Assembly: GCA_023435925.1 (NCBI GenBank)
Contig: JAEZLF010000063.1
Location: 496 to 64,495 of the forward strand
Length of the DNA: 64,000 nucleotides
Reading direction: 5' to 3'
Source of the DNA: Bacillota bacterium
GTDB taxonomy: Bacteria > Bacillota > Clostridia > Acetivibrionales > DTU013
Shown: positions 26,065 through 60,107 of the stretch, in pieces
How the letters are laid out: the number at the start of each line of letters is the position of its first letter
Position numbering within the stretch: the stretch's first letter is position 1
Made by a program: the position numbers and the translations under genes
The notes under the pieces: generated by a model
The model's database searches: none
Told to the model about the DNA's origin: nothing
The model's input: only the letters and a program-made list of their open reading frames with translations

Positions 26065-26228
26065 TGATTTGGAGAGTTGTTATATAATGGGGAAAAGCTT
26101 GTATATCCAATGTGCTTAGCTTCTCAGCTTGTTCATTAAATACTTTTATTGTACAATATATTATGGAAAATATCCTAGTAAAAATATTTTTAGGAAAATA
26201 TGTTGACAAATAATGTTTAAGGGAAAAG

Positions 26229-29093: not shown

Positions 29094-29115
29094 TTAGCTT
29101 GGAGGTCTTTTAATA

Positions 29116-34798: not shown

Positions 34799-34804
34799 AT
34801 ATGA

Positions 34805-36808
34805 ATGGGACTCACACAAGAAGTTAAAAATCTTGCTACCGTGGACATATTCCAAGAAGCCAAGAAGCCGGATATGTTTATTGGCAGACCATTTTACCTT
34901 GATTTTGAAAAAGCATACTTGTTAATTACAGATGCGTGGAAAGAAAGGGTTGGGGGTATTCCGCAGGGAACTTTTCTACTTGCTTTTTATGAAAATGAAA
35001 ACGATGACATTGATGAATGCCTTTTACTTAGAGCAATAAGACCTGCGAAGTTGCCGACTGATAATGATGTTATTGCATCTATGGTCGAATATTATAAAGA
35101 TAATTTAAATACCTCAGGCAAAAAGAATCAGCTTGATGACTTTACAAAATACACCTTCAGTTTTTCGGGTCTGGAATGTCGGGTTTTGGGCACTTTCTTT
35201 AGAGACGAAGCAGATAAAATTCAGTTTGGAGCCGATGTGGAAAATTATTATAGCGCACATAACTATGTAGCCTACAAACCTATTGGTAATGTTCTCGAGC
35301 AGATAGTAAACTTCAGGGATGGCAATTCCATTGGGAGCTCTACAGATTATCGGATCGGGAAGATAAGATACAGTTCAAGCCGTCGTTTTCAGGAAAAGCA
35401 TGCGGATGTGCCTGTATATATAAGCCCAAGTGATTTTTTGGGCAAACGTACCGCACTTTTTGGTATGACGAGAACTGGAAAATCAAATACTGTAAAGAAG
35501 ATAATTGAATCTACGACTGAAATAAGCAATAAAGCAAAATCTACTTCTGTTGCAGCAAATTTAGTTGATGCTACGGAAGTTATAATGCAATTTGAGGATA
35601 ATGGATTGCCTAAATATAAAGTAGGACAAATTATCTTCGATATGAATGGCGAATATGCCAATGCAAATTTACAAGACGAGGGGACGGCAATCTTTGAAAA
35701 ATATAAAAGTATAACGACAAGATATAGTGTGCTTGATAAGCCTGATTTTAAGGTACTAAAAGTAAATTTTTATAAAGAAATATCAGTAGGCTTTGAACTG
35801 ATCTGCAGCCTTCTTGCAGATGAAGGCGGTGATTACATAAAAAGCTTCCTTGCGGTTGACTTACAAGAACCTGACATAAATAATAGGTCAGCTCATACCC
35901 GTTGGCTACGTAAGGCTGCTGCCTATCAATGTTGCCTGAAAGCAGCAGGATTTACTGTACCGAAGAATCATAGGGTTAGCTTCACAGGGAATAAGGAGAT
36001 AAATGATAAGATTATCACGGGAAAAGTAATTGACCCCTCCAGTGGAATTAACTTAGAAGATGCAACTGCTTTTTGGACATGGGTTGCTGAACATCAAGAC
36101 GACAATTTTTTTGCAAATTACAAAAGCAGTAATGGTCATGATTGGGTTGATGAAGATTTGAAGGCGATCTTAGTTTTCTTAACTCGTAAGCGAGATTTAG
36201 GCAGAAACGTAAATATAACTGGTTACCGCAAATTGGTGCCACTACTAGATTACCATACAATAAATTCTGACTCTCCTTTTGAAATAGATATTGTTAACCT
36301 ACTCCGTCAAGGTCAAATAGTAATTGTTGATTTGTCTCAGGGCGATCCGATTATACAGCAAACTTTTGCAGAAAAAATCTGTGTAAGCGTTTTTAGAAAT
36401 GCGATGGATAATTTCGTAAAAACAAAACCGAATAATTTTATTCAATTTTATTTTGAGGAAGCCCACAACCTTTTCCCTCATAAAGAAGATAAAGATTTAA
36501 GTAGAATTTATAACCGCATTGCAAAAGAAGGGGCCAAGCTCAATATTGGTTTAATTTATGCTACCCAAGAAGTTAGTTCAATATCCTCAAACATATTAAA
36601 AAATACCCAAAACTGGTTTATCGCTCACCTTAATAATGAGGATGAACTTAAGGAAATTCGTAAATTCTACGATTTCGCTGACTTTTGTGACAGCTTAATC
36701 AGATATAGCTCGGGAAGCGATAAAGGCTTCATTCGTATGAAGACATACTCCAACGCATTTATTGTACCGGTGCAGATTGATAGGTTTACAGCACAAGGGG
36801 GTAATTGA
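34805..36808 (+). CDS. HerA/FtsK-superfamily (DUF87-like) ATPase
   Basis: Walker A is ALFGMTRTGKSNTVKKI and the Walker B region is FIQFYFEEAHNLFP. The HerA-like distal block is GLIYATQEVSSISSNILKNTQNWFIAHLNNEDE. An AGGAGG RBS is present, and the gene starts 6 nt after the methyltransferase. Confidence 0.7.
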   Translation: MGLTQEVKNLATVDIFQEAKKPDMFIGRPFYLDFEKAYLLITDAWKERVGGIPQGTFLLAFYENENDDIDECLLLRAIRPAKLPTDNDVIASMVEYYKDNLNTSGKKNQLDDFTKYTFSFSGLECRVLGTFFRDEADKIQFGADVENYYSAHNYVAYKPIGNVLEQIVNFRDGNSIGSSTDYRIGKIRYSSSRRFQEKHADVPVYISPSDFLGKRTALFGMTRTGKSNTVKKIIESTTEISNKAKSTSVAANLVDATEVIMQFEDNGLPKYKVGQIIFDMNGEYANANLQDEGTAIFEKYKSITTRYSVLDKPDFKVLKVNFYKEISVGFELICSLLADEGGDYIKSFLAVDLQEPDINNRSAHTRWLRKAAAYQCCLKAAGFTVPKNHRVSFTGNKEINDKIITGKVIDPSSGINLEDATAFWTWVAEHQDDNFFANYKSSNGHDWVDEDLKAILVFLTRKRDLGRNVNITGYRKLVPLLDYHTINSDSPFEIDIVNLLRQGQIVIVDLSQGDPIIQQTFAEKICVSVFRNAMDNFVKTKPNNFIQFYFEEAHNLFPHKEDKDLSRIYNRIAKEGAKLNIGLIYATQEVSSISSNILKNTQNWFIAHLNNEDELKEIRKFYDFADFCDSLIRYSSGSDKGFIRMKTYSNAFIVPVQIDRFTAQGGN

Positions 36809-38151
36809 AAGTGAGTTATGGAAATGAATATTCCAGTAAGCCTTTTGAAAGGGCCAGTAAAACCGCACATACAAACATAATTAACGACAAAGAAGTGCAA
36901 GCCTTTCTTACGAAGTGTAAGATACCACCCTATCAAGATGATGTTGATAGCGAAGATATGGAGATGCGTTTTCTTAACCCTCTTGCCCTAAATCCAATCA
37001 AAAACGTTGTTACCATAGATGGCGGATATACGAATATTTTTATAAAAGAGGATTTCCCATCATCCACCATTGCTTTTTTTCAGTTTGGAGCATTGTTTTT
37101 CAAGCATCAGGATTTATTTGATTTGAAGGTTAAGCCTTTTATTGACCCTGATGATTTTTCAAAACTACAAAAAATTCAGAGGATTAAACTGGTTGTGCCG
37201 ACCAAAGGAGTAGCTTTGGACGGAGAAATTGATTTAATAAGTTCTGTGAGAAAGTCAATATATGATTTTTTCTGTTCGCAGCCGGAACGGAACGGATTCA
37301 TATCTGCATTAAAATGGTTGCTCTTTGAGGAATACGATACTTCTGTTAAGAATTCTATTTGGCACTTGGCTTCTTGCCCATATTGCCAGGAAGGTGCAAA
37401 TATAAACAAATTGGATATTACACCAGCATATACAATTATTTGTCCTCATTGCAGCGGAACCATTTATTTAACTGATGTGTTTCGGCTTCATGAAGCGATT
37501 GACAACGAACTTGGAGCGGGAGGCATTCTTGGTTACTTATCTACGACTGTCGAACAAATAATTATTGTGTTTCTCATCAAACAAATGATTTCTATACGAC
37601 CAAGCCTCCTATCCGAAACGTTATTCATAAAAGATGGTCCGCTTGCATTTTACGGTCAAACTGCAAATATTCATAAGCCTATGAGAAAACTGATTACCTA
37701 CCTAAATAAGTTTCACAGCATATACATGGTCGGTTTAGAAAAAAGTGGATCTTTCGTTGAACATGCAGAACAAGTATCAAAGAAAATGAAGCAAAAACAA
37801 ATCCTGTTGTTGGGCAATAAATATATTTATAAGTATATCATTCCAGGCCAAGCAAAAGACAATGAACCCTATGCGAGTTCAACATATTATGGCCATAAGG
37901 TTATCTTTAAATCTGAATATGATAATGTTTATGTTGCTACTGTCCCTAGTTTGCAACCACAGTGTGAACCCAAAGTAGATGATTATATACATCTACATGA
38001 AACACTTTATAATGTAAGCGCTCTAAAATGCGACTTGTACTATAACTCACTTGTTCCAATAGTTTTAGCCAATAAGTTGGTATCTCTCGCTGACCATCCA
38101 AGCGCAGATGTATTAAAAGCTTTTGCTCAAAACAAAATAACCAACTATTAA
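36805..38151 (+). CDS. NurA-like nuclease with inserted zinc ribbon (putative)
   Basis: The spacing resembles NurA: VVTIDGGYTNIF, then LFIKDGPLAFYGQ, then MVGLEKSGSF. CPYCQEG...CPHCSG lies between them. The TTG start overlaps the ATPase stop (TTGA at 36805-36808). The fold assignment is by eye only. Confidence 0.5.
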   Translation: MKVSYGNEYSSKPFERASKTAHTNIINDKEVQAFLTKCKIPPYQDDVDSEDMEMRFLNPLALNPIKNVVTIDGGYTNIFIKEDFPSSTIAFFQFGALFFKHQDLFDLKVKPFIDPDDFSKLQKIQRIKLVVPTKGVALDGEIDLISSVRKSIYDFFCSQPERNGFISALKWLLFEEYDTSVKNSIWHLASCPYCQEGANINKLDITPAYTIICPHCSGTIYLTDVFRLHEAIDNELGAGGILGYLSTTVEQIIIVFLIKQMISIRPSLLSETLFIKDGPLAFYGQTANIHKPMRKLITYLNKFHSIYMVGLEKSGSFVEHAEQVSKKMKQKQILLLGNKYIYKYIIPGQAKDNEPYASSTYYGHKVIFKSEYDNVYVATVPSLQPQCEPKVDDYIHLHETLYNVSALKCDLYYNSLVPIVLANKLVSLADHPSADVLKAFAQNKITNY

Positions 38152-38246: not shown

Positions 38247-38768
38247 ATGAATAAGATACCAAAAGATTTTATAGCATTTGACTTGGAAACCACAGGATTT
38301 GCCCCTCCGTGCAAAATCATTGAAATTGGTGCTGTCAAAGTGCTAAACGGCAATATAGTCGAGCAAGTCCAGACTTTTGTTAATCCGTGTTCTGCAATTC
38401 CCAAGCATATCACAGACATTACCGGCATTAATCAAATGATGGTTGATAAAGCTCCTAAAATAGAAGATGCATTACCGATGTTCATTCATTTTATTGAGTT
38501 TTTCCCTATAGCCGCTCATAATGCTTCTTTTGATATGAAGTTTATACGGTCTGAAGCAAATAAGTTGGGCTACTCCGTAAGAAACCAGGTAATTGATACG
38601 CTTACCTTAGCCCGAAGGCATTTTCCGAGATTAGATAATCATAAACTGAATACTGTTGCCCGACATATAGGTGTGATAAATCAGAATGAACATAGAGGCC
38701 TTTATGATGCTATGGTTGTCGCCGAGATTTTATTGAAGATATCTCTCAATGATGAACAGGTAGGTTAG
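38247..38768 (+). CDS. DEDDh 3'-5' exonuclease (DnaQ/epsilon-like)
   Basis: ExoI is FIAFDLETTG, ExoII is AHNASFDMKF and ExoIII is HRGLYDA (H-x4-D). Confidence 0.85.
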   Translation: MNKIPKDFIAFDLETTGFAPPCKIIEIGAVKVLNGNIVEQVQTFVNPCSAIPKHITDITGINQMMVDKAPKIEDALPMFIHFIEFFPIAAHNASFDMKFIRSEANKLGYSVRNQVIDTLTLARRHFPRLDNHKLNTVARHIGVINQNEHRGLYDAMVVAEILLKISLNDEQVG

Positions 38769-38933
38769 CGATAGATTGCAAATAAAGAAACGGTAGCATT
38801 GATGGACAGACTCGTTCATCATACTCACTTTTATGTAAATTTAACTTACAAACCTTGTAAACATATGTCAACATTGCTTATATTGATATAGGCTATTTAT
38901 TTCGCTGTTAAACTATAAGTACCGTCGTATATA

Positions 38934-39296
38934 AAAAATCCTAAGGAGATTCCACAATGCCAACCACCCACTATAACAAACTAATCCGTGACAAAATCCC
39001 TGAAATTATTGAAAAATCCGGTAAAAAACCAATCACAGAGATACTTGATGCCGAGGCCTATAAAAAGCACCTTGACCTAAAACTCAGCGAGGAGCTTCAA
39101 GAATATCTTAATGACGATAATATCAATGAGTTGGCTGATCTGGTTGAAGTGATTTATGCGATCCTAAAACATAAGGGTATTGAGCTGGACGATTTTGAGC
39201 AAGTTCGAAAAAGGAAGGCAGAGGAGCGGGGAGCATTTGATAAGAGGCTGTTGCTAAAAGAAGTCAGAGACTAAATCATGAGTTATTGTCAGACAG
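38934..39296 (+). repeat. 363-bp direct repeat, copy 1 (MazG-like gene plus first 21 nt of the downstream helicase gene)
   Basis: It aligns colinearly, with substitutions only, to 41422-41784. Both copies end at ...TAAATCATGAGTTATTGTCAGACAG. Confidence 0.9.
38957..39274 (+). CDS. MazG-like all-alpha NTP pyrophosphohydrolase (copy 1)
   Basis: 105 aa. The N-terminus YNKLIRDKIPEII and the acidic metal-binding helices SEELQEYL and ELADLVEV match small MazG/phosphoribosyl-ATP-PPase-like proteins. Confidence 0.7.
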   Translation: MPTTHYNKLIRDKIPEIIEKSGKKPITEILDAEAYKKHLDLKLSEELQEYLNDDNINELADLVEVIYAILKHKGIELDDFEQVRKRKAEERGAFDKRLLLKEVRD

Positions 39297-39371
39297 CCTA
39301 ATCAACAAAACAGGATGAGCTCGAAGTTTATTGTAAGAAGTACAATGAAGTGATATTGGAGGGTTTTTATA

Positions 39372-40049
39372 TTGAGCGGTTTGACAGAAAAGTATGTTCA
39401 GGATGTTTCTTTGGAATTCCTTAAAAAGTATTATGAGGATAAGGACAAACCTGAAAAGATCTTTTGTAAAAAAGAAGTGGTGACCAAATATAAAAAGCGA
39501 AAAGGAAGAGCGGATGGGTTAATTGCTTATAAGAATGGAAATCAGATTTATACTGTGTCATTGGAAGCAAAGTCGCATAAAACATATGATACCCTGATTG
39601 CAATATATAATGATAAATTGTGGTTATTGATTGGTTTCATAGTTGCTTGCATTATTTTTGCTTTCTCCATTTTTTTACTTTGGCAGTTAAATTGGATTAT
39701 CAAGATGGTTATTTCTTTATCTGTAGGGACATTATTTGGGTTTGCAGCAATGTTTCTTATAGATGAAAAAGGATATTTGAATAGGCATGGGATTATTGAA
39801 CAAGTAAGAAGATATCCTGCCAATGAACGGTGGATTGCTTTTTCATATGATGCTTATAGCTTTTTCGATAAGCAAAATGAACATGAATTAAAGATTCGTG
39901 CTAAAAGATATGGAATCGGCATCATAATTGTCAGCAAATCAAGAAAGGCTTATATTGAACTGCATGCTAAAGCAAGTAACATGAAGGGAAAAATGAATTT
40001 TCTAAAATACTATTCAGCAGCAGACAGTATTGAAAAATCTATAAATTAG
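39372..40049 (+). CDS. hypothetical membrane protein with PD-(D/E)xK-like motif split by a TM hairpin
   Basis: TTG start behind GGAGGG. GRADGLIAYK...YTVSLEAKS forms a D...EAK pattern. Two or three TM helices follow (LWLLIGFIVACIIFAFSIFLLW, MVISLSVGTLFGFAAMFLI), then a soluble tail ending in RYGIGIIIVS. Confidence 0.4.
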   Translation: MSGLTEKYVQDVSLEFLKKYYEDKDKPEKIFCKKEVVTKYKKRKGRADGLIAYKNGNQIYTVSLEAKSHKTYDTLIAIYNDKLWLLIGFIVACIIFAFSIFLLWQLNWIIKMVISLSVGTLFGFAAMFLIDEKGYLNRHGIIEQVRRYPANERWIAFSYDAYSFFDKQNEHELKIRAKRYGIGIIIVSKSRKAYIELHAKASNMKGKMNFLKYYSAADSIEKSIN

Positions 40050-40100
40050 TATGAGAATTGAAGAAAATATCAAAGCTGTTGTCATAACCTGTCATCTGTT

Positions 40101-40877
40101 ATGATAATGAATAATCTATCATCAATTTATAGTTACAAATATAGACAAATTATGATATTATTAAGTATATTGATTAGTGTAAATAAGTTTATATGGGGAA
40201 GGTTCTCTATGGGTAATGATGGTATTGATATTTATGAATTTGCCTATAAATTAAGCTATAAAAAAGATAAACGTAAGCTTTTCGTGATAGGGCTTGGAAT
40301 TATATATTCATTTGATTTGATATTCTTCTTAATTCTTAAAAACGTTATAAAAATAAATTCCATCATTAGTTTTCTTATTATTTTTGTATCCATCTGTACG
40401 TACCCATTTTTAATTGGGATAATAAGATCTTTCTTCCCATTTCATGAAAGAAAGATTGAAAATAAGAAGTTAGGTGAATCTTCAAAAGCTATTGAGGATG
40501 CTATAAAGAATTATTTCAATGAATCATTTGTAGATCAAAATGACATAGTATGTCGTGCAAAACAAGCGAGTGCGTATTTAATTAATACAGGAATAATTAT
40601 TTCTGATTTGCAGAAAGAGATGGAAGAAAGAAATAGAGCACTTGAGAGCTTGTTATCAACCATTGAGACAAGGAAACAAGATGCTGAGTATTACGCCCAA
40701 TTAGCAGCTTTAAATGAGCAATTAGCAGCGCCCTTGATGAAAGAGATTGAAAAAGTCATAAGAAATGAGTTCGAGCTAAAAGAAAAACAAAAAAGAGTGT
40801 TTAATATTCTTATTTGGATAGTTACCTTAATTGCGGGTGGAATTGTAGGGGTATTATTTCAAATATGGTTTTCATAA
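40101..40877 (+). CDS. hypothetical membrane protein with coiled-coil segment
   Basis: It has 2-3 N-terminal TM helices, a central helical E/K/Q-rich region and a C-terminal TM helix. A likelier start is ATG 40209 (MGNDG), behind GGGGAAGG. Confidence 0.4.
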   Translation: MIMNNLSSIYSYKYRQIMILLSILISVNKFIWGRFSMGNDGIDIYEFAYKLSYKKDKRKLFVIGLGIIYSFDLIFFLILKNVIKINSIISFLIIFVSICTYPFLIGIIRSFFPFHERKIENKKLGESSKAIEDAIKNYFNESFVDQNDIVCRAKQASAYLINTGIIISDLQKEMEERNRALESLLSTIETRKQDAEYYAQLAALNEQLAAPLMKEIEKVIRNEFELKEKQKRVFNILIWIVTLIAGGIVGVLFQIWFS

Positions 40878-41094
40878 ATACTACAAGATGTTTGGATTGA
40901 TGTTGCTTTGAAAGATATAGAAGAAGCTAAAAGAAAAATTGATGAGATTCCTAAACAGCACCCGTTTGAGTTAAGATATCATGTAAATGTCGGTAAGGTA
41001 GATTGGGAGAGATGCGTTAATGTGCTGGATGGTAAGGAAAAACGTAAGTATTTGATGAATGGATGGAGATAAATCGGTAGAGGGGTAAGAAAAG

Positions 41095-41325
41095 ATGGCT
41101 AAAGTTAGTAAAATAAGTAAGATTGAGAAGAATAGGGATTCCATACATGTTGATGTTGAATGTACCTATAGCGTGTTTGAGAACTTTGGGAAGAAATATT
41201 TCCAGATAGACACATATGGTACAGAACAAAGACAAGTGAAAAACCAACCGAGTCAGAAGATTCAGTTTGATAAAGAATTTGCAGTTCAATTAATTGATAT
41301 ATTAAAAAAGGAATTTAACTTGTAA
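41095..41325 (+). CDS. hypothetical small protein
   Basis: 76 aa, AGGGGTAAG RBS, no recognisable motif. Confidence 0.35.
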   Translation: MAKVSKISKIEKNRDSIHVDVECTYSVFENFGKKYFQIDTYGTEQRQVKNQPSQKIQFDKEFAVQLIDILKKEFNL

Positions 41326-41421
41326 AGAGGGCTATAACTCTTTGCTCCAGATGCAACTTAGGGAAAAGAGATATGATGCTATGAGATTCTGTCCATATTA
41401 TACTATGAGCACAATCATGAA

Positions 41422-41784
41422 AATAATCTTGAGGAGATTATAATATGCCCACGATCCACTACAACAAACTTATCCGCGACAAAATCCCTGAAATTATCGA
41501 AAAATCCGGCAAAAAGCCGATTACAGAAATACTTGATGCCGAAGCCTATAAAAAGCACCTTGACCTAAAACTCAGTGAGGAGCTTCAAGAATATCTTAAA
41601 GACGATGATGTCAATGAGTTGGCCGATCTGGTTGAGGTGGTTTATGCGATCCTGAAACACAAAGGCATTGGGCTGGACGATTTTGAGCAGATCCGTAGAA
41701 AGAAGGCAGAGGAGCGGGGAGCATTTGATAAAAGGCTGCTGCTAAAAGAAGTCAAAGACTAAATCATGAGTTATTGTCAGACAG
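41422..41784 (+). repeat. 363-bp direct repeat, copy 2
   Basis: See copy 1. In this copy the helicase reading frame continues intact beyond the repeat. Confidence 0.9.
41445..41762 (+). CDS. MazG-like all-alpha NTP pyrophosphohydrolase (copy 2)
   Basis: 95 of 105 residues are identical to copy 1. The stop lies 3 nt before the helicase ATG. Confidence 0.7.
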   Translation: MPTIHYNKLIRDKIPEIIEKSGKKPITEILDAEAYKKHLDLKLSEELQEYLKDDDVNELADLVEVVYAILKHKGIGLDDFEQIRRKKAEERGAFDKRLLLKEVKD

Positions 41785-44054
41785 GGGGAGTCGGTGTGGA
41801 GAATGAAGTGAGGTATACAACCAGCCTTGCCAGCGTAGCAGAGGATTTATTTGTAGAATTATTCTGCGAAGCATTCGGGCCGGACAAGACACAATATCTT
41901 TCTGTGCAGCATCCCTTTGTAGATATCTACGGAAATAGAAGATACATAGATTTCGCACTTGAAAGTGATGTCTTAAAGCTTGCTATAGAGATCGATGGTG
42001 AGAGATTTCATAATCCTCAGAAGGTTTCTGGTAATAAGTACCATGATGACCTTCTGAAACAAAACAGTCTGATCTATAACGACTGGAAGGTTTACAGATG
42101 GGCATATGTTCAATTGAAAAGGCAGCGGGAAAAGGTAAAGGACGAACTATTCACTTTTGTTGGTGAAATGCCGCAGTTCAGGATGCTGGATGATTATCTG
42201 CCAAAACAGAAGGGAAAAACATTTGAACTGAAGAATCATCAGCAAGCAGCCATAGATAACCTGCAAAAGATGAGGGAGAATGGAGAAAGCATTGCACTTC
42301 TATACCATGCAACAGGGGTCGGGAAAACGGTTACTGCCGTAAGCGATGCCCGGAAAGTAGGCAAAAGAACGTTATTCCTCGCCCACACCAGGGAGCTTGT
42401 GAAACAAGCGAAAAATACGTTTGAGAGCATTTGGACGGATAAGCAAACCGGCATGTATGTAGCGGAACAAAAAAGCGAGGATGCATACATTGTATGTGCA
42501 AGCATTCAAAGTGTTGCTCAAAACCTCGATCATTTCAAACCGGATGACTTTGGATATGTAATTATTGATGAATGCCATCACGGTACAGCGGAGACCTATA
42601 GAAAAATATTAGGTCACTTCAAGCCGGAGTTCACTCTTGGTTTGACTGCAACACCAGAAAGAGCGGATGGTGAAGACTTACTGGAGTTGTTTAAGAACAT
42701 AGCGCACAAGCTTGATTTAAAAACTGCCGTTGAGATGGGTGAACTGTCGCCCATCCGCTGTATTCGCGTTAAAACAAATGTTGACCTGTCAACTGTTCGC
42801 ATTAACGGTATTAAATATTATTCTCAGGATCTTGAAAGTAAGCTCTTTGTTCCGGAAAGAAACAGAATAATTATTGACACATACCTACAGTATGTGAAGA
42901 ATAGGAAGACGGTTGTGTTTTGTGCGTCGGTGAAGCATGCAGAGGAAATTGCCGGATTATTCAGGGAAAATGGAGTGAAATGCGAAGCAGTTTCGGGAAC
43001 GCTCAGAGCGTCGGAAAGAGAACGGATTCTGGAGAATTATGAAAACGGAGAAATTTATGTTCTATGCGCATGTGACCTACTGAATGAGGGATGGGACAGC
43101 CCTAAGACAGAAGTATTGCTCATGGCAAGGCCCACCATGTCTAAAACTTTGTATATGCAGCAGCTGGGACGTGGAATGAGAAAATGTGAGGGCAAGGAAT
43201 ATCTTATGGTATTTGATTTCATCGATAATGCGAATATGTTCAACACTCCATATTCCATCCACAGACTGTTGAATTTGAAAGAGTACAGACCTGGACAAAT
43301 GGTATTGGCTCCGCAAAAGCAGCTGGAGCTTGATAAAGATTTGCTGGCAAAAGGCGAAAAGCCTGAGGTGTATTTGGACTTTCCCATTGATGTTGCAGAT
43401 TATGAACTAATCGATCTTTTTAACTGGCAGGATGAAGTAAAGGATATGATTTCCCAGCTCGAGTTTGTCAGAATGGTAGATATTCAATCAGAGACCATTG
43501 AAAAGTACATCCGGGATAGGAAGATAAAGCCCGATCTGGAGGTTCCCGTAGGTGATAAACGCAGTTTCAAATATTTCAAGGAAGATACTGTGAAGAAATA
43601 CGCATCGGAATTCAAGTGGGAACTTATAACAGCAGCCAATATGAAAGATAAATTTATGCAAATGGTTAAGACCATGGATATGAGCTTTTCTTATAAACCA
43701 GTGCTGTTAAAGGCCATGTTGGAACATGTGGATGAAAACGGAAGAGTTCGTGTTGAAGATATCATTGACTTCTTTATAGACTTTTATGGTAACCGAAAAG
43801 ATAAAGGACTTTTTGTTGAAAAGAAGTCCAGTGTATTCTGCAGGGACGGATTTACGCGAAAGGACGTAGAGCGTAATGTTTTTGCTAATCCTTTTAAAAG
43901 ATTCGAAGATATGCGGTTTATGAAGCGATGCAGGGAGATTGAGTATGTTGAGTTTAATAAGCATGTGTTTAAGAAGCTGACTAAAGTGGATATGGCGTGG
44001 ATTAAGGTATACTGTGATGAGAAATTGGGGGAGTATTATGGGAGATACATATGA
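41766..44054 (+). CDS. Vsr/DUF559-like endonuclease domain + SF2 (ResIII/DEAH) helicase + unknown C-terminal domain
   Basis: The N-terminus reads RRYIDFALESDVLKLAIEIDGERFH...NDWKVYRW, the DUF559 pattern. Helicase motifs are HATGVGKT, IIDECHHG, GLTATPER and QQLGRGMR. The last roughly 200 aa (SFSYKPVLLKAMLEHVDENGRVRVEDIIDFF...) are unassigned. Confidence 0.8.
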   Translation: MSYCQTGGVGVENEVRYTTSLASVAEDLFVELFCEAFGPDKTQYLSVQHPFVDIYGNRRYIDFALESDVLKLAIEIDGERFHNPQKVSGNKYHDDLLKQNSLIYNDWKVYRWAYVQLKRQREKVKDELFTFVGEMPQFRMLDDYLPKQKGKTFELKNHQQAAIDNLQKMRENGESIALLYHATGVGKTVTAVSDARKVGKRTLFLAHTRELVKQAKNTFESIWTDKQTGMYVAEQKSEDAYIVCASIQSVAQNLDHFKPDDFGYVIIDECHHGTAETYRKILGHFKPEFTLGLTATPERADGEDLLELFKNIAHKLDLKTAVEMGELSPIRCIRVKTNVDLSTVRINGIKYYSQDLESKLFVPERNRIIIDTYLQYVKNRKTVVFCASVKHAEEIAGLFRENGVKCEAVSGTLRASERERILENYENGEIYVLCACDLLNEGWDSPKTEVLLMARPTMSKTLYMQQLGRGMRKCEGKEYLMVFDFIDNANMFNTPYSIHRLLNLKEYRPGQMVLAPQKQLELDKDLLAKGEKPEVYLDFPIDVADYELIDLFNWQDEVKDMISQLEFVRMVDIQSETIEKYIRDRKIKPDLEVPVGDKRSFKYFKEDTVKKYASEFKWELITAANMKDKFMQMVKTMDMSFSYKPVLLKAMLEHVDENGRVRVEDIIDFFIDFYGNRKDKGLFVEKKSSVFCRDGFTRKDVERNVFANPFKRFEDMRFMKRCREIEYVEFNKHVFKKLTKVDMAWIKVYCDEKLGEYYGRYI

Positions 44055-44183
44055 CTATGTCATGCAAAGGTGAACCAATAAAGCTGCATCAGGTTCAATA
44101 TAACAGCCTGTGTTTGCAATCAATGGGATTAAGGATATTGATGAGCCCAATGGAGTACTGAAACGTGGTGGAGGTGTATTTTT

Positions 44184-44792
44184 ATGTCGAAGATATCAAC
44201 ATCAGCAGATACTAAGAAAAACACTTTGGATAGATATGAAGCACTAAAAACATTAGTGGTTGATAGAAAAACTCAGTTTGACAGGCTTATTGCGTTTATG
44301 GAAAATGAGACAACTTGGCTGACTTCGCCGGCGAGTACGAAGTACCACCTTTGTAAAGAAGGTGGATTGCTTGAGCATTCTGTCAACGTTGCTGAATCCA
44401 TGTTAAAGATCAGAGAAGCATTAGCTCCGGAAATCAGTGAAGAGAGCTGCGTTATTGTATCTTTAATTCATGACCTGGGGAAGGTTGGAATGCCTGGGAA
44501 TCCACAATATCTGATTAATGAACCGTCAGAGAAACAGCTAAAGTACGGATACAAGCCCGATGCACCATACAGGTTTAATAAAGATCTCACTTATTTGAGT
44601 GTGCCCATCAGGAGTCTTTTCCTGGCTTCGAAATATATAGACCTAACAGAACAAGAGGTACAAGCCATTGTTTATCATGATGGACAATATGTAGAGGACA
44701 ATCGATCAGTTGCTAAAAATGAGGAACCGCTGACATTACTGTTGCAATATGCAGATAGCTGGAGCGGGTTTGTGGCGGAAAAGGAAAGGTGA
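44184..44792 (+). CDS. HD-superfamily hydrolase, YhaM-type HD domain without OB fold
   Basis: SPASTKYHLCKEGGLLEHSVNV and LIHDLGKV (the HD motif) resemble the HD module of YhaM-type 3'-5' exonucleases. 202 aa. Confidence 0.75.
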   Translation: MSKISTSADTKKNTLDRYEALKTLVVDRKTQFDRLIAFMENETTWLTSPASTKYHLCKEGGLLEHSVNVAESMLKIREALAPEISEESCVIVSLIHDLGKVGMPGNPQYLINEPSEKQLKYGYKPDAPYRFNKDLTYLSVPIRSLFLASKYIDLTEQEVQAIVYHDGQYVEDNRSVAKNEEPLTLLLQYADSWSGFVAEKER

Positions 44793-45448
44793 GACACTGT
44801 GCAAATTGACTTTATAGATTTTTCTTAGGATGAAAGAAATAGAGTATTAGCTACTTTAAGGTTGTTTGGAACACAGACAGCATTGGAAATATTCTTGAGC
44901 ATCGCTAAAAAGCCATTGGCATTTCAGAGAGTAAGACATTTAGATTGATCAATGTTCTATACTGTTCGAAACTGAACTAAGCAGATCTGAATATGTGATA
45001 TTGGAGGTCTTGTTGAAATGAATGAGCGTTATTTGACTAAATCGAGGTTTATTGCCGGAGAGTGTTATTGAAGAATATAAGCACTGCATACAGGAGATTT
45101 TGGAGCAATATCCATAATCGTGTCATAGTCCGTTTTATTGTACACACTATTTGACACAATGGGTGAAACAGGAAATCTACCAGCCGTGATGAATGTTATA
45201 CGAGACCCTGAATATGAGAAGCTGAATGATGAATGAGCAAGAATAAAAATCAACTTGCCGAACTTATTGAAGACAGGGACGATACTGTCAGTGCAAGATT
45301 CATGGATACAAGAAAGCTTATATATGGAATTGTGCAGGATAGGGAAAAGGAAGGAAACTGGCTCAAGATGCGCAAAGATATATTTGAAGTATTAGATTGC
45401 CGCCTTAATGTACAGGATATTTTATAAAATTATTTATGGGGTGTTGAA

Positions 45449-45605
45449 ATGGCGCAGTATTTAGTTGAACGATACTCAGAAATGATAAAAAGTATTGATA
45501 AAGCAAATTTGAGAATACGAAATGAAAACAATAAGCGAAAATGAGACCTCCTGGCTTACTTCCCCTGCGAGTACAAAATTTCATTTATGGAAGGGGAATC
45601 TGTAA
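45449..45605 (+). pseudogene. frameshifted 5' fragment of a paralogous YhaM-type HD gene
   Basis: One frame reads MAQYLVERYSEMIKSIDKAN...; the next frame reads ENETSWLTSPASTKFHLWKGNL*. This is colinear with residues around 15-60 of the 44184 gene (ENETTWLTSPASTKYHLCKEGGL). It is cut off where the next gene begins. Confidence 0.55.
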
Positions 45606-46588
45606 TGGACTTTCAATTAAAACAAGAGGTGATACAAAGTGAACTTTTTAAAGGTAAATGTGGAGGGCAATTTAACTCTGCTGAATATCCTTATGTCTTA
45701 AGAGAAGAACATAGAAAAGAAAACTTATATACAGATATTGCTGATAGTGCTATAAAGTATTTTAAAGAAAATAGAATTGTTTGGTGGCGAGGTAAAGACG
45801 GTTTACCTACCAACCATACATTATCTTCACAAGTTGCATGTCTCAATCATCTATTTTGGATAAGAGACAATCAAAAAGCTGCGACAAGCGTTTTAAAGCA
45901 GATAGACAAGGATTTCGTTACGATAAAGTTTCCAAATTCAGATTTAAATTCAGAGAATTATGTTGAATTTGAATTAAATGGATATGATAAAAGTCAGGGG
46001 AACTTACTAGGCGAGAAAGGAAGTGCCAGAGGGGCAAACACAACGTCTATCGATGCGGCAATGTTGGCTATGAAAGATAATAAAATTATACTAATATTTA
46101 TTGAATGGAAATATGTTGAACATTACCATAGGAGAATAGATGCACTGAAAGCTGAACCCAAATATGAAGTTCAAAAAAAGACATATAAGAATCTTCTGTT
46201 AAGTGATGATAGCCCAATTATCCTAGATAAAATAAGAAATAAATTGAACCTGGATTTTGATTTGGCTTATCAGAAATTTTCTGTAGAGCCGTTCTATCAG
46301 TTAATGCGACAAACCTTGCTGGCTTGGAGATTGAGCTGTGTAAAAAGGTATGGAGCAGAAGACTATCTACATATTCATGTTATTCCTAAAGATAACAAAA
46401 AGCTATTGCTATGCAAAACTTCTCCTGAAATCACTGAAGGGTATAGCGATATTCGATCTGCATGGGCAGCACAACTTAAAAATCCAGCAAAGTATATACA
46501 TATGGATCCATCTGAGTTAATTGGACATGCAGCTTTTGAGTACAACAAGGGTTTATATGAGTATTTGAACAATAGATACTGGAGATGA
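45605..46588 (+). CDS. hypothetical protein, possible PD-(D/E)xK nuclease
   Basis: The start is set at ATG 45605, behind AAGGGGA. The candidate motif is SIDAAMLAMKDNKIILIFIEWKY (D...E-x-K). There is no other recognisable domain. Confidence 0.35.
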   Translation: MDFQLKQEVIQSELFKGKCGGQFNSAEYPYVLREEHRKENLYTDIADSAIKYFKENRIVWWRGKDGLPTNHTLSSQVACLNHLFWIRDNQKAATSVLKQIDKDFVTIKFPNSDLNSENYVEFELNGYDKSQGNLLGEKGSARGANTTSIDAAMLAMKDNKIILIFIEWKYVEHYHRRIDALKAEPKYEVQKKTYKNLLLSDDSPIILDKIRNKLNLDFDLAYQKFSVEPFYQLMRQTLLAWRLSCVKRYGAEDYLHIHVIPKDNKKLLLCKTSPEITEGYSDIRSAWAAQLKNPAKYIHMDPSELIGHAAFEYNKGLYEYLNNRYWR

Positions 46589-46632
46589 AAAGGAGAAATA
46601 ACTATTAAATGTAAAATCGGGAATTTCTATGG

Positions 46633-46833
46633 TTGCCTCTAGGCAGAGTTATCGGAGATGCTTTGGGGTATTCGGTAGAGTTTATGAGTATTGGTGAAAT
46701 AAAGGATAGGTTTGGAGCCGAGGGGATAACCGATTTGCTTTGCGATAAGGTGAGTGGCAAGGCAATTATATCGGATGATACACAGATGACGATGTTTACT
46801 GTTGGAAGGTATTCTGTGGGCGGATATGCGTGA
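46633..46833 (+). pseudogene. N-terminal fragment of an ADP-ribosylglycohydrolase
   Basis: IGDALGYSVEFMSIGEIKDRFGAEGITDL...ISDDTQMTMFT matches the ARH/DraG N-terminal metal-site block. The frame stops after 66 aa, whereas a full-length protein would be about 300 aa. Confidence 0.6.
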
Positions 46834-49357: not shown

Positions 49358-49414
49358 ATATGATACCAGACCAATGAAATGAGAGATGAAAATTATGAGG
49401 AGATATGAGAGATA

Positions 49415-49939
49415 ATGAAATACATTCTTGGTGTGGATGCAGCTTGGACAGAGAAAGAACCTACAGGTGTCGCGCTACTTTCAATAAATAATGACAATTC
49501 GATACAAGCTGTTAAAATCGCTAGGTCATACGAAGAGTTCTCTAAAGGAAGAATCAGTTGGGATAACTCCGTAACCGGGTCAAAACCCGATTTTCCAAGG
49601 CTTTTATGCTATTGTAGGAATAATGAATGGGTCATTGATCTGATAGCTCTTGATATTCCTTTATCTCCTGAAAGGATAATAGTAAGACGAGAATGTGACA
49701 GGCTAATATCCAGGCATTATGGGAAATATGGTGCGTCAACCCACAGCCCAAGTGAGATCCGACCTGGACCTATTTCAGAGGCTATTTTCAAGCAGCTTTC
49801 GGAAGCAGGATACAGTTGGAATGGAGATGCTAATGAAAGTTTGTCTTTCATCGAGGTATATCCGCACACAACAATAATTGAAATTTTTGAATATCAATAT
49901 AGATTCCAATACAATTTGAGTCCGTATTATAAGGAATAG
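49415..49939 (+). CDS. DUF429-like (RNase H-fold) protein, probably C-terminally truncated
   Basis: The N-terminus ILGVDAAWTEKEPTGVALL is typical of DUF429. At 174 aa it is shorter than I expect for the family, and an IS remnant follows. Confidence 0.5.
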   Translation: MKYILGVDAAWTEKEPTGVALLSINNDNSIQAVKIARSYEEFSKGRISWDNSVTGSKPDFPRLLCYCRNNEWVIDLIALDIPLSPERIIVRRECDRLISRHYGKYGASTHSPSEIRPGPISEAIFKQLSEAGYSWNGDANESLSFIEVYPHTTIIEIFEYQYRFQYNLSPYYKE

Positions 49940-60100: not shown

Positions 60101-60107
60101 CATTATT

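What the first reader, a model, noticed from the sequence alone, without database searches (positions are those of the whole stretch)
38247..44792. DEDDh exonuclease - MazG - Vsr/DUF559-SF2 helicase - YhaM-type HD hydrolase: candidate multi-gene anti-phage system
Ignoring the inserted cassette, four co-oriented genes follow each other:
- a DnaQ-like exonuclease
- a 105-aa MazG-type NTP pyrophosphohydrolase, whose stop lies 3 nt before the next ATG
- a 762-aa protein joining a DUF559/Vsr-like endonuclease fold to a DEAH helicase and an unassigned C-terminal domain
- an HD hydrolase of the YhaM exonuclease type

Nuclease-helicase fusions and nucleotide-pool enzymes are each known defence themes. 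I do not recognise this particular combination, with tight MazG-helicase coupling, as a described system.

The helicase C-terminal segment (SFSYKPVLLKAMLEHVDENGRVRVEDIIDFF) vaguely recalls the DNA-recognition modules of McrA/HNH_2-type modification-dependent enzymes. I cannot verify that by eye.
Basis: partly seen in the sequence, partly recalled or inferred. Interest (0 to 1): 0.7.

Follow-up and report, generated by a model that had tools for sequence, protein, structure and literature searches.

The report
MazG plus nuclease-helicase restriction pair
Only two of the four flagged genes travel together across bacteria: a small MazG-like nucleotide hydrolase and a large nuclease-helicase that resembles enzymes which cut chemically modified phage DNA, which suggests an undescribed pairing of nucleotide-pool clean-up with DNA restriction.

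Summary
All four genes are real and lie at the stated coordinates, inside a large chromosomal defence island. They are not a four-gene system.

In about 160 related loci, the DEDDh exonuclease and the HD hydrolase are not linked to the helicase. None of 84 helicase-centred loci has a homologue of either.

The conserved unit is a two-gene operon:
- a 105-aa MazG/HisE-like pyrophosphohydrolase with its catalytic acidic residues invariant
- a roughly 750-aa protein with a Vsr/DUF559-type nuclease, a SauUSI/RadD-like SF2 motor, and a C-terminal HTH plus winged-helix module

MazG abuts the helicase in 37 of 62 species-level loci. In 55 abutting pairs from all loci the two proteins diverge in step (Spearman 0.88).

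Six of the 17 MazG-less loci carry a HIT hydrolase instead. SauUSI-like enzymes and Nudix genes recur in the same operons.

The C-terminal module is also fused to GmrSD enzymes. The same MazG clade also precedes McrB-like, GmrSD, HNH and PLD-helicase genes.

Best reading: a Type IV-like restriction nuclease with a nucleotide-pool hydrolase as accessory. I found no description of this in PADLOC models or the literature searched. No function was tested.

In the window the MazG gene is duplicated around an inserted three-gene cassette.

The parts
41445..41762 (+). MazG/HisE-like all-alpha NTP pyrophosphohydrolase, copy 2 (105 aa). It is the operon partner of the helicase.
   Evidence: Homologues abut the helicase gene in 37 of 62 species-level loci. 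E45, E46, E49, E58, D61 and E64 are invariant. The AF2 model has pLDDT 96.7, and its top Foldseek matches are HisE, YpjD and DR2231.
41766..44054 (+). Single-chain nuclease-helicase (762-aa ORF). The start is probably GTG 41796, behind the Shine-Dalgarno sequence GGGGGAG, which would give 752 aa.
   Evidence: ORF. Domains. The best solved relative is SauUSI (7clg), E 5e-53 over residues 150-490.
41823..42170 (+). N-terminal Vsr/DUF559-type (MTES_1575) endonuclease domain, about residues 20-135.
   Evidence: MTES_1575 scores E 3e-6, below the Pfam cut-off. It is hit by 18 of 18 homologue N-termini, and DUF559 by 8 of 18. D53, D62, E75, D77 and H82 are invariant.
42213..43250 (+). SF2 ATPase/translocase core. 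Walker A lies at 42309-42329, the DECH box at 42567-42581, and motif VI (QQLGRGMR) at 43158-43181.
   Evidence: ResIII and Helicase_C. PADLOC mREase_IV, E 3e-54, over the motor region only. PDB matches: SauUSI 5e-53 and RadD 4e-35. PHROG 16 'DNA helicase', 1e-87. Motif positions.
43428..44051 (+). C-terminal HTH (HTH_17/MerR-like) plus winged-helix 'SYKP' module. It is the presumed DNA-recognition part.
   Evidence: No Pfam or PDB sequence match. The AF2 model has pLDDT 76.8, above 85 over the last 150 residues. Foldseek gives only weak winged-helix matches such as forkhead, TubR and MukE. The same module is fused to GmrSD_N+GmrSD_C proteins.
38957..39274 (+). MazG-like copy 1 (105 aa, intact, 90% identical to copy 2). 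It is now separated from the helicase by the cassette.
38933..39296 (+). Left arm of the direct repeat. The right arm is 41421-41784. Each arm holds the MazG ribosome-binding site, the gene, and 22 nt of the spacer before the helicase Shine-Dalgarno sequence. This is a recombination scar.
   Evidence: Comparable scars occur in L017 and L028, where MazG remnants sit just before the helicase.
39297..41420 (+). Inserted low-GC cassette. It is not part of the pair. Its genes are a 225-aa protein (39372-40049), a 258-aa protein (40101-40877) and a 76-aa protein (41095-41325).
   Evidence: GC is 0.29-0.35 against about 0.40 in the flanks. No family matches apart from two marginal PHROG hits (E 1e-3 and 1e-4). 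The 225-aa family occurs elsewhere without MazG.
38247..38768 (+). DEDDh (DnaQ/PolC-type) 3'-5' exonuclease. It is an island neighbour, not a conserved component.
   Evidence: RNase_T, E 1.6e-34. No homologue in 84 helicase-centred loci.
44184..44792 (+). HD-domain phosphohydrolase (202 aa). It is an island neighbour, not a conserved component.
   Evidence: HD, E 1.3e-4. PHROG metal-dependent phosphohydrolase, 2e-23. YhaM HD region, E 0.015. Absent from all related loci. A paralogue lies at 60039-60689.

Best explanation
The functional unit is a two-gene operon.

**Gene 2, the nuclease-motor protein.** It is built like an ATP-dependent, single-polypeptide restriction enzyme.
- A C-terminal HTH plus winged-helix module binds the target DNA. 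The target is most likely DNA carrying a modified base.
- A SauUSI/RadD-type SF2 motor translocates along the DNA.
- An N-terminal Vsr/DUF559-type endonuclease cuts it.

**Gene 1, the 105-aa MazG/HisE-like enzyme.** It hydrolyses nucleoside triphosphates to the monophosphate plus pyrophosphate. I infer that its substrates are non-canonical (modified) dNTPs. Hydrolysing them could serve two purposes:
- It could deny a phage the modified precursor it needs.
- It could keep modified nucleotides, salvaged from degraded foreign DNA, out of the host chromosome. The host's own modification-dependent nuclease would then not attack self DNA.

**What is shown and what is inferred.**
- Shown: the domain content, intact catalytic motifs, conserved operon linkage, island context, and shared modules with Type IV enzymes.
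- Inferred: the defence function, dependence on modification, and the MazG substrate and role.

The exonuclease and the HD gene are unrelated neighbours in the same island.
For: **Linkage seen from the helicase side**
- MazG abuts the helicase upstream on the same strand in 37 of 62 assessable loci (species-level genome contigs plus three further contigs).
- MazG lies within 6 kb in 8 more loci.

**Linkage seen from the MazG side**
- 34 of 80 metagenome loci have the Vsr-helicase within 2.5 kb downstream.
- 9 more have a PLD/SauUSI-like helicase within 5 kb.
- Of the 31 loci with at least 2.5 kb on both sides, 20 have one or the other.

**Co-inheritance**
- In 55 adjacent pairs, the identities of MazG and of the helicase to the window copies correlate (Spearman 0.88).
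- Linkage persists down to 51-56% helicase identity.

**A nucleotide hydrolase seems to be required**
- 6 of the 17 MazG-less loci have a HIT hydrolase next to the helicase (within about 330 nt; one on the opposite strand, one a fragment).
- Nudix genes recur as well: L166 reads MazG - helicase - SauUSI-like (overlapping) - Nudix, and L003 has a Nudix.
- L092 reads HIT - PLD-helicase - MazG - 5'-nucleotidase.

**Ties to Type IV restriction**
- The motor's best solved relative is SauUSI, and its best PADLOC models are mREase_IV.
- A true PLD-helicase-DUF3427 gene follows the helicase in 10 of 79 loci.
- The C-terminal module is fused to five GmrSD_N+GmrSD_C proteins.
- The same MazG clade directly precedes McrB-like, GmrSD_N, HNH_2 and HNH_4 nuclease genes.

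**Defence-like population behaviour**
- It sits in defence islands: the window, L002, L003, L166 and L167.
- It also occurs as a bare two-gene insertion between housekeeping genes (L001).
- Several genera of Clostridia carry copies 72-88% identical to the window's helicase.
- Three copies each are present in two Desulfosporosinus genomes.

**Catalytic residues are intact** in the nuclease, the motor and MazG.

**Precedent**
- Human DCTPP1 is a MazG-like enzyme that controls 5-methyl-dCTP and DNA methylation (PMC4491611).
- MazG replaces a dNTP-degrading effector in rare PUA-HAD immune systems (bioRxiv 10.64898/2026.01.15.699771).
Against: - No experiment exists. Defence, modification dependence and the MazG substrate are all inferred from association.
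- The C-terminal module has no significant match to any known modified-base reader such as SRA, DUF3427, EVE/PUA or SBD. The Foldseek best E is 0.14, to generic winged helices.
- The motor also matches phage 'DNA helicase' PHROG 16 (1e-87) and RadD, so its likeness to SauUSI is not exclusive.
- The known helicase+Vsr system Hhe restricts unmodified phages (bioRxiv 10.1101/2022.06.16.496414).
- 17 of 62 helicase loci lack MazG. About half of the MazG-clade loci have other neighbours, including housekeeping genes, or none.
- The MazG and nuclease domain assignments are below Pfam's curated cut-offs.
- The C-terminus is not more variable than the motor, so there is no sign of diversifying specificity.
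- The 'SauUSI-like' tally in the MazG-centred loci rests on a tblastn filter. Only L102 and L166 were checked with Pfam.
Confidence: 0.55

Rival explanations
1. This is the four-gene system the first reader proposed. The DEDDh exonuclease, MazG, the nuclease-helicase and the HD hydrolase would act together.
For: The four genes are co-oriented and close together in the window. An exonuclease gene lies within 5 kb of a MazG-clade gene in 3 of 80 loci: L117, L136, and the RNase_T fusion in L149.
Against: No exonuclease, HD or cassette homologue was found in any of 84 helicase-centred loci. The pair occurs alone between housekeeping genes. A gap of 129 nt separates the helicase from HD, and 188 nt separates the exonuclease from MazG1. 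The HD gene has its own duplication scar and a paralogue elsewhere in the window.
Confidence: 0.03
2. The nuclease-helicase is a modification-independent defence protein of the Hhe/Hna kind. It would sense phage DNA, replication intermediates or a phage protein. MazG would be the second effector or its regulator: for example, it could deplete dNTPs on activation, or degrade a nucleotide signal to keep the nuclease silent.
For: Hhe (helicase plus Vsr nuclease) is active against the phages lambda, T3, T7 and PhiV-1 (unmodified DNA, own knowledge). MazG substitutes for a dNTP-degrading effector in PUA-HAD systems. A 5'-nucleotidase follows MazG in L092. The C-terminal module resembles generic winged helices, not a known modified-base reader.
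Against: The recurrent partners and fusion relatives belong to families better known for modification-dependent restriction: SauUSI-like, GmrSD, McrB-like and HNH_2. MazG is a bare 105-aa enzyme with no regulatory domain, and an unregulated dNTPase would be toxic. No PADLOC Hhe or Hna model matched.
Confidence: 0.22
3. This is not defence but genome hygiene or repair. MazG, HIT and Nudix would clean damaged or non-canonical nucleotides from the pool. The RadD-like helicase with its Vsr-type nicking nuclease would remove the same lesions from DNA.
For: RadD is the second-best solved relative, and the best NCBIfam model is RadD. Vsr itself is a repair nuclease. MazG, Nudix and HIT are classic house-cleaning families. 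Some MazG-clade genes sit next to housekeeping genes such as rpoB, parB and recN.
Against: The distribution is patchy and multi-copy, and copies in several genera stay 72-88% identical to the window's helicase. The pair sits in defence islands beside Hachiman, Type I R-M, GmrSD and TIR genes. It is linked in operons to SauUSI-like restriction enzymes, and its C-terminal module is shared with GmrSD.
Confidence: 0.1
4. The adjacency has no functional meaning. MazG would be a frequent 'landing pad' or flanking gene at a recombination hotspot where defence cassettes accumulate.
For: Cassettes are inserted between MazG and the helicase in the window, L017, L028 and L050, with duplicated or truncated MazG copies. 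Small genes are wedged between them in L120, L127, L129 and L143. The MazG clade has many different downstream partners.
Against: The genes abut or overlap in most loci. Divergence is correlated over 55 pairs. HIT, another nucleotide hydrolase, takes MazG's place. The pair moves as a unit into otherwise housekeeping surroundings.
Confidence: 0.1

Closest known systems
SauUSI (Staphylococcus aureus Type IV ATP-dependent restriction enzyme; PDB 7clg)
   Same: It is a single polypeptide with a nuclease, an SF2 helicase-like motor and a C-terminal DNA-recognition domain. The motor is clearly homologous (E 5e-53; PADLOC mREase_IV 3e-54). True SauUSI-like genes sit in the same operon in 10 of 79 loci.
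   Different: The nuclease is Vsr/DUF559-type rather than PLD. The C-terminus is an HTH plus winged-helix module, not DUF3427/SRA-like. A MazG gene is coupled upstream. The papers retrieved on SauUSI make no mention of an accessory gene; I saw only their abstracts.
Hhe (Gao et al. 2020; helicase plus Vsr endonuclease, single gene)
   Same: It combines a helicase with a Vsr/MTES_1575-family nuclease and is a validated anti-phage protein. An Hhe-like DUF4011-AAA_11/12-MTES_1575 protein lies in the same island in L002.
   Different: As judged from the L002 protein and my own recollection, Hhe uses an SF1 (Upf1-like) helicase with the nuclease at the C-terminus. Here the helicase is SF2 and the nuclease is N-terminal. 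No PADLOC Hhe model matched. Hhe has no MazG partner (own knowledge).
GmrSD / BrxU family Type IV restriction enzymes
   Same: Five representative GmrSD_N+GmrSD_C proteins carry the same C-terminal HTH plus 'SYKP' winged-helix module. GmrSD-type genes directly follow MazG-clade genes in L123 and L050.
   Different: The catalytic machinery is entirely different: a DUF262 NTPase and a DUF1524 HNH-like nuclease, against an SF2 motor and a Vsr nuclease.
MazG / HisE / DCTPP1 all-alpha NTP pyrophosphohydrolases
   Same: The small protein has a predicted helical bundle (three long helices plus a short one), an EExxE...ExxD acidic motif and the right size. Its best structural matches are HisE, YpjD and DR2231. 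DCTPP1 shows that such an enzyme can police 5-methyl-dCTP (PMC4491611).
   Different: Sequence similarity to curated models is below threshold. The substrate is unknown. Dedicated linkage to restriction nucleases is not described for these families in the literature searched.
PUA-Calcineurin-CE-HAD dNTP-depleting system (rare MazG variants)
   Same: A MazG-like enzyme is used as a nucleotide-directed component of an immune operon, together with a second phosphoesterase. Compare MazG plus 5'-nucleotidase in L092.
   Different: No PUA sensor or HAD partner is present here. The partner is a nuclease-helicase.

Membership tests
SauUSI-type Type IV restriction enzyme | SF2 helicase-like ATPase core homologous to SauUSI | tested here: met
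   phmmer against PDB: 7clg, E 5e-53, residues 150-490 aligned to 216-562. PADLOC mREase_IV, E 3e-54.
SauUSI-type Type IV restriction enzyme | N-terminal PLD-family nuclease | tested here: not met
   No PLDc match. The N-terminus matches MTES_1575/DUF559 instead.
SauUSI-type Type IV restriction enzyme | C-terminal DUF3427 (SRA-like) modified-cytosine reader | tested here: not met
   No DUF3427 match. The AF2 model matches only generic winged helices, best E 0.14.
SauUSI-type Type IV restriction enzyme | ATP-dependent cleavage of modified but not unmodified DNA | not testable with these tools
   This needs biochemistry or phage assays.
Hhe (helicase + Vsr nuclease) | Vsr/MTES_1575-type endonuclease domain with catalytic residues | tested here: met
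   MTES_1575 is hit by 18 of 18 N-termini (best 2.7e-8, below the Pfam cut-off). D62, E75, D77 and H82 are invariant.
Hhe (helicase + Vsr nuclease) | SF1 Upf1-like helicase (DUF4011, AAA_11, AAA_12) with the nuclease at the C-terminus | tested here: not met
   The helicase is SF2 (ResIII, Helicase_C) and the nuclease is N-terminal. No Hhe model appears among the PADLOC matches.
MazG / all-alpha NTP pyrophosphohydrolase superfamily | All-alpha helical fold like HisE/MazG | tested here: inconclusive
   AF2 pLDDT is 96.7. The top Foldseek matches are HisE (1yxb, 1yvw), YpjD (2gta) and DR2231, with probability up to 0.9-0.93 but E of at least 0.3.
MazG / all-alpha NTP pyrophosphohydrolase superfamily | Acidic metal-binding motif ExxE ... 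ExxD | tested here: met
   E45, E46, E49, E58, D61 and E64 are invariant in 38 sequences.
MazG / all-alpha NTP pyrophosphohydrolase superfamily | Match to a curated family model above its cut-off | tested here: not met
   PRA-PH scores E 0.007 (17.2 bits against a cut-off of 21.3) for copy 1, and nothing for copy 2. The profile against PDB gives HisN2 at E 0.11. Three of 120 homologues carry a precomputed PF01503 hit.
MazG / all-alpha NTP pyrophosphohydrolase superfamily | NTP to NMP + PPi activity | not testable with these tools
   This needs an enzyme assay.
YhaM-type HD exonuclease (claimed for the 202-aa gene) | HD domain | tested here: met
   Pfam HD scores 22.7 bits against a cut-off of 22. 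The HD region of YhaM (9h3f) scores E 0.015.
YhaM-type HD exonuclease (claimed for the 202-aa gene) | N-terminal OB-fold nucleic-acid-binding domain | tested here: not met
   The protein is only 202 aa. The alignment covers YhaM residues 129-201 only, and there is no OB-fold match. Its closest families are phage 'metal-dependent phosphohydrolase' PHROGs.
DEDDh (DnaQ-like) exonuclease (173-aa gene) | RNase_T/DEDDh domain | tested here: met
   RNase_T, E 1.6e-34, full length. PADLOC DEDDh, 2.6e-38.
Multi-gene defence system (operational definition: components co-occur across genomes) | All four genes conserved together | tested here: not met
   No exonuclease or HD homologue was found in any of 84 helicase-centred loci.
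Multi-gene defence system (operational definition: components co-occur across genomes) | MazG and helicase conserved together | tested here: met
   37 of 62 loci have them adjacent. 34 of 80 from the MazG side have the helicase within 2.5 kb. Spearman 0.88 over 55 pairs.

The most novel reading that the evidence does not exclude
A clade of small MazG-like pyrophosphohydrolases, sometimes replaced by HIT and often joined by Nudix enzymes, is a dedicated accessory of many unrelated modification-dependent (Type IV) restriction nucleases. These include the Vsr-helicase, SauUSI-like PLD-helicases, McrB-like, GmrSD and HNH enzymes.

The accessory would destroy the modified dNTP that corresponds to the base the nuclease recognises in DNA. 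Nucleotide-pool sanitation would thus be coupled to DNA-level restriction. It could serve as a safeguard against self-restriction, or as a second blow against phages with modified DNA.
Probability: 0.3. Interest if true: 0.75.

Novelty: new variant of a known kind. Interest (0 to 1): 0.55.

Why it matters
Type IV restriction enzymes are usually described as stand-alone proteins. How cells avoid turning them on their own chromosome, when modified nucleotides are salvaged, is rarely discussed.

A conserved operon link between a nucleotide-hydrolysing enzyme and several families of such nucleases would give that question a concrete, testable handle. The obvious tests are the MazG substrate, autoimmunity in MazG mutants, and pools during infection.

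It would also add a widespread, uncatalogued nuclease-helicase architecture to the defence repertoire of Clostridia.

For genome annotation, it shows that the neighbouring exonuclease and HD genes should not be bundled with it.

Tried and rejected
- **Four-gene system.** I ran tblastn of the exonuclease, the HD gene and the three cassette proteins against 84 helicase-centred and 80 MazG-centred loci. There were no hits, apart from three exonuclease genes near MazG-clade genes (two tblastn hits, one Pfam RNase_T fusion). Rejected.
- **Prophage replication module.** There were no pattern matches in 2.9 million viral contigs. In the phage database one unannotated 12.7-kb record matches full length at 28%; the other listed matches cover at most 71% of the protein at up to 35%. 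MazG matches a single Vibrio jumbo phage. Rejected for the pair. HD-family proteins do occur in phages.
- **Plasmid origin.** There was no megablast match in PLSDB.
- **Identity of the C-terminal domain.**
  - Pfam, NCBIfam, PADLOC and a PDB sequence search found nothing.
  - Foldseek gave only weak winged-helix matches.
  - Profile-profile comparison with MazG-linked HNH nucleases gave a borderline match.
- **N-terminal nuclease profile against PDB.** No Vsr or DUF559 structure was recovered.
- **MazG profile against PDB.** Only a marginal HisN2 hit came back.
- **Promoter and terminator scan of 38-45.7 kb.** Counts equalled the chance expectation, so it was uninformative.
- **Source contig lookups.** Exact-sequence lookups for the window's helicase and for P0121 (identical to MazG copy 1) found nothing. 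Only short Logan contigs of the same sample were recovered.
- **A third copy of the 28-nt junction at 45035-45062 (75% identity).** No MazG remnant lies around it, so I treated it as chance.
- **Literature searches.** I searched for MazG together with Type IV restriction, McrBC, GmrSD or helicase defence, and for COG4997. No description of this pairing turned up.

Full report
**What is in the window**

The region 38.2-44.8 kb carries, all on the + strand:
- a 173-aa DEDDh exonuclease (38247-38768);
- a 105-aa ORF (38957-39274);
- three unassigned ORFs of 225, 258 and 76 aa (39372-41325);
- a second 105-aa ORF (41445-41762);
- a 762-aa ORF (41766-44054);
- a 202-aa ORF (44184-44792).

The domain assignments are as follows.
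- The exonuclease is a full-length RNase_T domain, E 1.6e-34.
- The 762-aa protein has ResIII and Helicase_C domains and a sub-threshold MTES_1575 (Vsr/DUF559-like) match at residues 58-130.
- It has a Walker A motif (ATGVGKT), a DECH box and motif VI.
- The 202-aa protein just passes the Pfam HD cut-off. Its only PDB match is the HD part of YhaM, E 0.015. It lacks the region N-terminal to YhaM's HD domain (residues 1-128), where YhaM's OB fold lies (own knowledge).

One addition matters: the MazG-like gene is present twice.
- A direct repeat (38933-39296 and 41421-41784) is about 87% identical, and its last 28 nt are identical.
- Each arm holds the MazG ribosome-binding site, the gene and 22 nt of downstream spacer.
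- The repeat brackets a low-GC (0.29-0.35) cassette.
- Homologues of the helicase are about 752 aa, and a GGGGGAG motif sits 5 nt before GTG 41796. The real start is therefore probably that GTG, and the repeat ends exactly at the Shine-Dalgarno sequence.
- Independent Logan contigs from run SRR13358386 reproduce both junctions, so the duplication is not an assembly artefact of the window.

**Is the small protein a MazG?**

Sequence evidence alone is thin.
- PRA-PH scores E 0.007 for copy 1 and nothing for copy 2.
- A family profile against PDB gives only HisN2, at E 0.11.

Three other lines agree with the assignment.
- Sources annotate homologues as 'house-cleaning noncanonical NTP pyrophosphatase (MazG superfamily)'.
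- An AlphaFold model (pLDDT 96.7) is a helical bundle of three long helices plus a short one. Its best Foldseek matches are HisE, YpjD and the MazG-like DR2231, with probability up to 0.9-0.93 but E of at least 0.3.
- The acidic residues E45, E46, E49, E58, D61 and E64 are invariant in 38 sequences. They form an ExxE...ExxD pattern.

I treat it as a probable active member of the all-alpha NTP-pyrophosphohydrolase superfamily.

**The large protein**

*N-terminus.* All 18 homologue N-termini tested hit MTES_1575 (best 2.7e-8), and 8 hit DUF559. D53, D62, E75, D77 and H82 are invariant. A profile against PDB recovered no Vsr structure.

*Motor.*
- The best solved relative is the Type IV enzyme SauUSI (7clg, E 5e-53), ahead of RadD (4e-35).
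- The best PADLOC models are the two 'Type IV methyl-directed restriction enzyme' models, E about 1e-54, over the motor only.
- The motor also matches a broad phage 'DNA helicase' PHROG at 1e-87. The likeness to SauUSI is real but not exclusive.

*C-terminus (last roughly 210 residues).*
- It matches nothing in Pfam, NCBIfam, PADLOC or PDB by sequence.
- An AF2 model (pLDDT 76.8, above 85 in the last 150 residues) shows an HTH domain followed by a winged-helix-like domain.
- Foldseek finds only weak winged-helix matches.

*Distribution of the C-terminal module.* An exhaustive HMMER search of 1.84 billion representatives found 672 relatives. Among the long ones I scanned with Pfam:
- four have the same Vsr-helicase architecture;
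- two have the helicase with a different N-terminus;
- five are GmrSD_N+GmrSD_C proteins, one of them with a Macro domain;
- others include a sigma-70-like protein and a DUF6339 protein.

The module is therefore a mobile DNA-binding unit shared with a second family of Type IV restriction enzymes. Its 'SYKP' helix aligns weakly with the N-terminus of HNH nucleases found next to MazG genes (hhalign probability 59%, E 9e-5).

**Which genes travel together? The helicase side**

A scan of one genome per species gave 80 loci, and contig look-ups gave a few more. Of 62 loci with the helicase N-terminus and upstream DNA available:
- 37 have a MazG homologue abutting upstream on the same strand;
- 3 have it 2-3 kb upstream with other genes in between;
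- 2 have it just downstream;
- 3 have it nearby on the other strand;
- 17 have none.

No locus has a homologue of the exonuclease, the HD protein or any cassette protein.

Context varies from bare insertion to defence island.
- In Thermanaerosceptrum fracticalcis the pair sits alone between a lipoate-protein ligase family gene and hydrogenase maturation (hyp) genes.
- Elsewhere it lies beside Hachiman, Type I R-M, an Hhe-like protein, GmrSD genes, TIR proteins and transposases.
- Two Desulfosporosinus genomes carry three copies each.

Six of the 17 MazG-less loci have a HIT-family hydrolase next to the helicase (within about 330 nt; one on the opposite strand, one a fragment). Two more loci have HIT and MazG together.

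A genuine PLD-helicase-DUF3427 (SauUSI-type) gene follows the helicase in 10 of 79 loci. In L166 it overlaps the helicase gene and is followed by a Nudix gene.

**Which genes travel together? The MazG side**

A profile scan of metagenome contigs gave 80 loci, 45-76% identical to the window's MazG.
- The Vsr-helicase N-terminal domain lies within 2.5 kb downstream in 34 of them. In 27 it abuts MazG. In 7 there is 0.3-1.6 kb in between, usually a 148-153-aa gene such as DUF6998.
- Nine more have a PLD/SauUSI-like helicase within 5 kb.
- Among the 31 loci with at least 2.5 kb on both sides, 20 have one or the other.
- Caveat: this last tally rests on a tblastn filter. Only L102 and L166 were confirmed with Pfam.

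Other genes directly after MazG include:
- McrB-like proteins (MrcB_N+AAA_5; L139, L131);
- GmrSD_N (L123);
- HNH_4 and HNH_2 nucleases (L107, L113; L093 by homology to L107);
- GIY-YIG (L158);
- an SF1 helicase;
- an RNase_T fusion;
- a 5'-nucleotidase. That locus, L092, reads HIT - PLD-helicase - MazG - 5'-nucleotidase.

Some relatives sit next to housekeeping genes instead.

In 55 adjacent pairs, the identities of MazG and of the helicase to the window copies correlate (Spearman 0.88). The loci are phylogenetically related, so this shows co-inheritance and is not an independent statistic.

**Not a phage or plasmid module**
- No close relative of the helicase is present in 2.9 million viral contigs.
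- In the phage database one unannotated 12.7-kb record matches full length at 28%; the other listed matches cover at most 71% of the protein at up to 35% identity.
- MazG matches one jumbo Vibrio phage.
- There is no plasmid match.

**Interpretation**

The four-gene system is not supported. The two-gene MazG-helicase unit is.

The architecture is a nuclease, a translocase and a DNA-binding module with no cognate methyltransferase. Together with its company (SauUSI-like, GmrSD, McrB-like and HNH partners or fusion relatives), it points to a restriction enzyme of the modification-dependent (Type IV) kind.

The recurrent presence of a small nucleotide hydrolase suggests that hydrolysis of some nucleotide is part of the job. 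The hydrolase is MazG, or HIT in its place, and it often comes with Nudix or a 5'-nucleotidase.

My preferred, inferred mechanism is that MazG removes the triphosphate of the modified base that the nuclease recognises in DNA. That would starve phages that build modified DNA. It would also keep salvaged modified nucleotides out of the host chromosome, and so prevent self-restriction.

Two precedents are relevant.
- Human DCTPP1 is a MazG-like enzyme that controls 5-methyl-dCTP and global DNA methylation (PMC4491611).
- A 2026 preprint notes that MazG replaces a dNTP-degrading effector in rare PUA-HAD immune operons.

The main rivals are these.
- A modification-independent Hhe-like mechanism. 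Hhe (helicase plus Vsr) restricts lambda, T3 and T7 (unmodified DNA, own knowledge). In this reading MazG would be an effector or regulator.
- A repair or hygiene role.
- Meaningless adjacency at a recombination hotspot.

None of these can be excluded without experiments.

**The duplication**
- In L017 and L028 a remnant of a MazG 3' end sits directly before the helicase, and an intact, more divergent MazG lies upstream of inserted genes.
- In L050 a DUF262 protein lies between MazG and the helicase.
- L036 has two MazG copies.

The window fits this recurrent pattern, and recombination between MazG copies of different modules seems to shuffle cassettes at this junction. The 225-aa cassette protein belongs to a family found in other islands without MazG, so MazG copy 1 is probably a leftover and not the partner of the cassette.

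**Novelty**

The parts are known kinds: an SF2 restriction motor, a Vsr nuclease and a MazG fold. I found no description of this protein architecture or of a MazG link to Type IV restriction. I looked in PADLOC models (2023) and in full-text searches. I rate it a new variant of a known kind, of moderate interest. Interest would rise if the pool-sanitation link proves general.

Noticed in passing
window 45469-45593 and 45587-46833: A frameshifted remnant of a second HD gene abuts the start of a REase-ARP nuclease gene (45587-46588). In the remnant, 16 of 19 aa are identical to HD residues 40-58. The REase-ARP gene is followed by a 66-aa fragment of an ADP-ribosylglycohydrolase (46633-46833). 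The HD gene, like MazG, therefore carries a 'duplicate copy plus inserted cassette' scar, and the REase-ARP/ARH module looks decayed.
   Followed up: partly
window 33833-38151: Three overlapping genes form an operon: an N6/N4 DNA methyltransferase (321 aa), a HerA/DUF87-like ATPase (667 aa, with a weak PADLOC mad8 hit), and a 448-aa protein with no family match. This is a possible methylase-associated HerA system. The exonuclease gene starts 96 nt after it and could belong to it rather than to MazG.
   Followed up: no
window 24949-33836: Further defence-type genes lie upstream: an Mrr-like protein (371 aa), a UvrD helicase fused to a PD-(D/E)XK/Cas4-like nuclease (954 aa), a Type II/III-like methyltransferase (684 aa), and an 889-aa protein with weak ResIII and TnsA-N endonuclease matches. 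Defence-type genes begin near 24.9 kb, after housekeeping-type genes (lacZ-like and oxidoreductases); the 21.8-24.9 kb stretch, including a 401-aa minus-strand ORF with no Pfam match, was not characterised.
   Followed up: no
window 47000-49939: A second SF2 helicase (785 aa) carries a C-terminal SprT/YgjP-like metallopeptidase motif. It is followed by a 174-aa protein with a PADLOC PDC-S44 hit and a weak DUF429 match. DUF429 is fused to MazG in the Desulfosporosinus loci L028 and L041.
   Followed up: partly
window 39372-41325: These are the cassette proteins. The 225-aa protein has a D...E-x-K-like motif (RADGLIAY...SLEAKS) followed by predicted membrane helices. The 258-aa protein is membrane-anchored with a coiled coil. 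The third is a 76-aa protein. No family matches were found apart from two marginal PHROG hits (258-aa 'hemolysin', E 1e-3; 76-aa unknown function, E 1e-4). Homologues of the 225-aa protein occur in other mobile islands next to integrase or recombinase genes.
   Followed up: partly
L092, L143, L130, L166 (related loci): Several operons combine two nuclease-helicases with two or three nucleotide hydrolases. L166 reads MazG - Vsr-helicase - SauUSI-like - Nudix. L143 reads SauUSI-like - Nudix - MazG fusion - 153 aa - Vsr-helicase. L092 reads HIT - PLD-helicase - MazG - 5'-nucleotidase.
   Followed up: partly
L139, L131, L123, L107, L113, L158 (related loci): Genes of the MazG clade sit directly upstream of McrB-like, GmrSD_N, HNH_4, HNH_2 and GIY-YIG nuclease genes. 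The hydrolase may therefore be a general accessory of modification-dependent nucleases, not a partner of one family.
   Followed up: partly
window 60039-60689: A second, intact HD-domain phosphohydrolase is 30% identical to the 44184-44792 protein. It matches the same phage phosphohydrolase PHROG more strongly, at 3e-48.
   Followed up: no
L026/L035/L041 and L029/L042/L043: Desulfosporosinus sp. OT and D. metallidurans each carry three copies of the MazG-helicase pair on separate contigs, each 72-74% identical to the window's helicase. This multi-copy behaviour is typical of defence genes.
   Followed up: no
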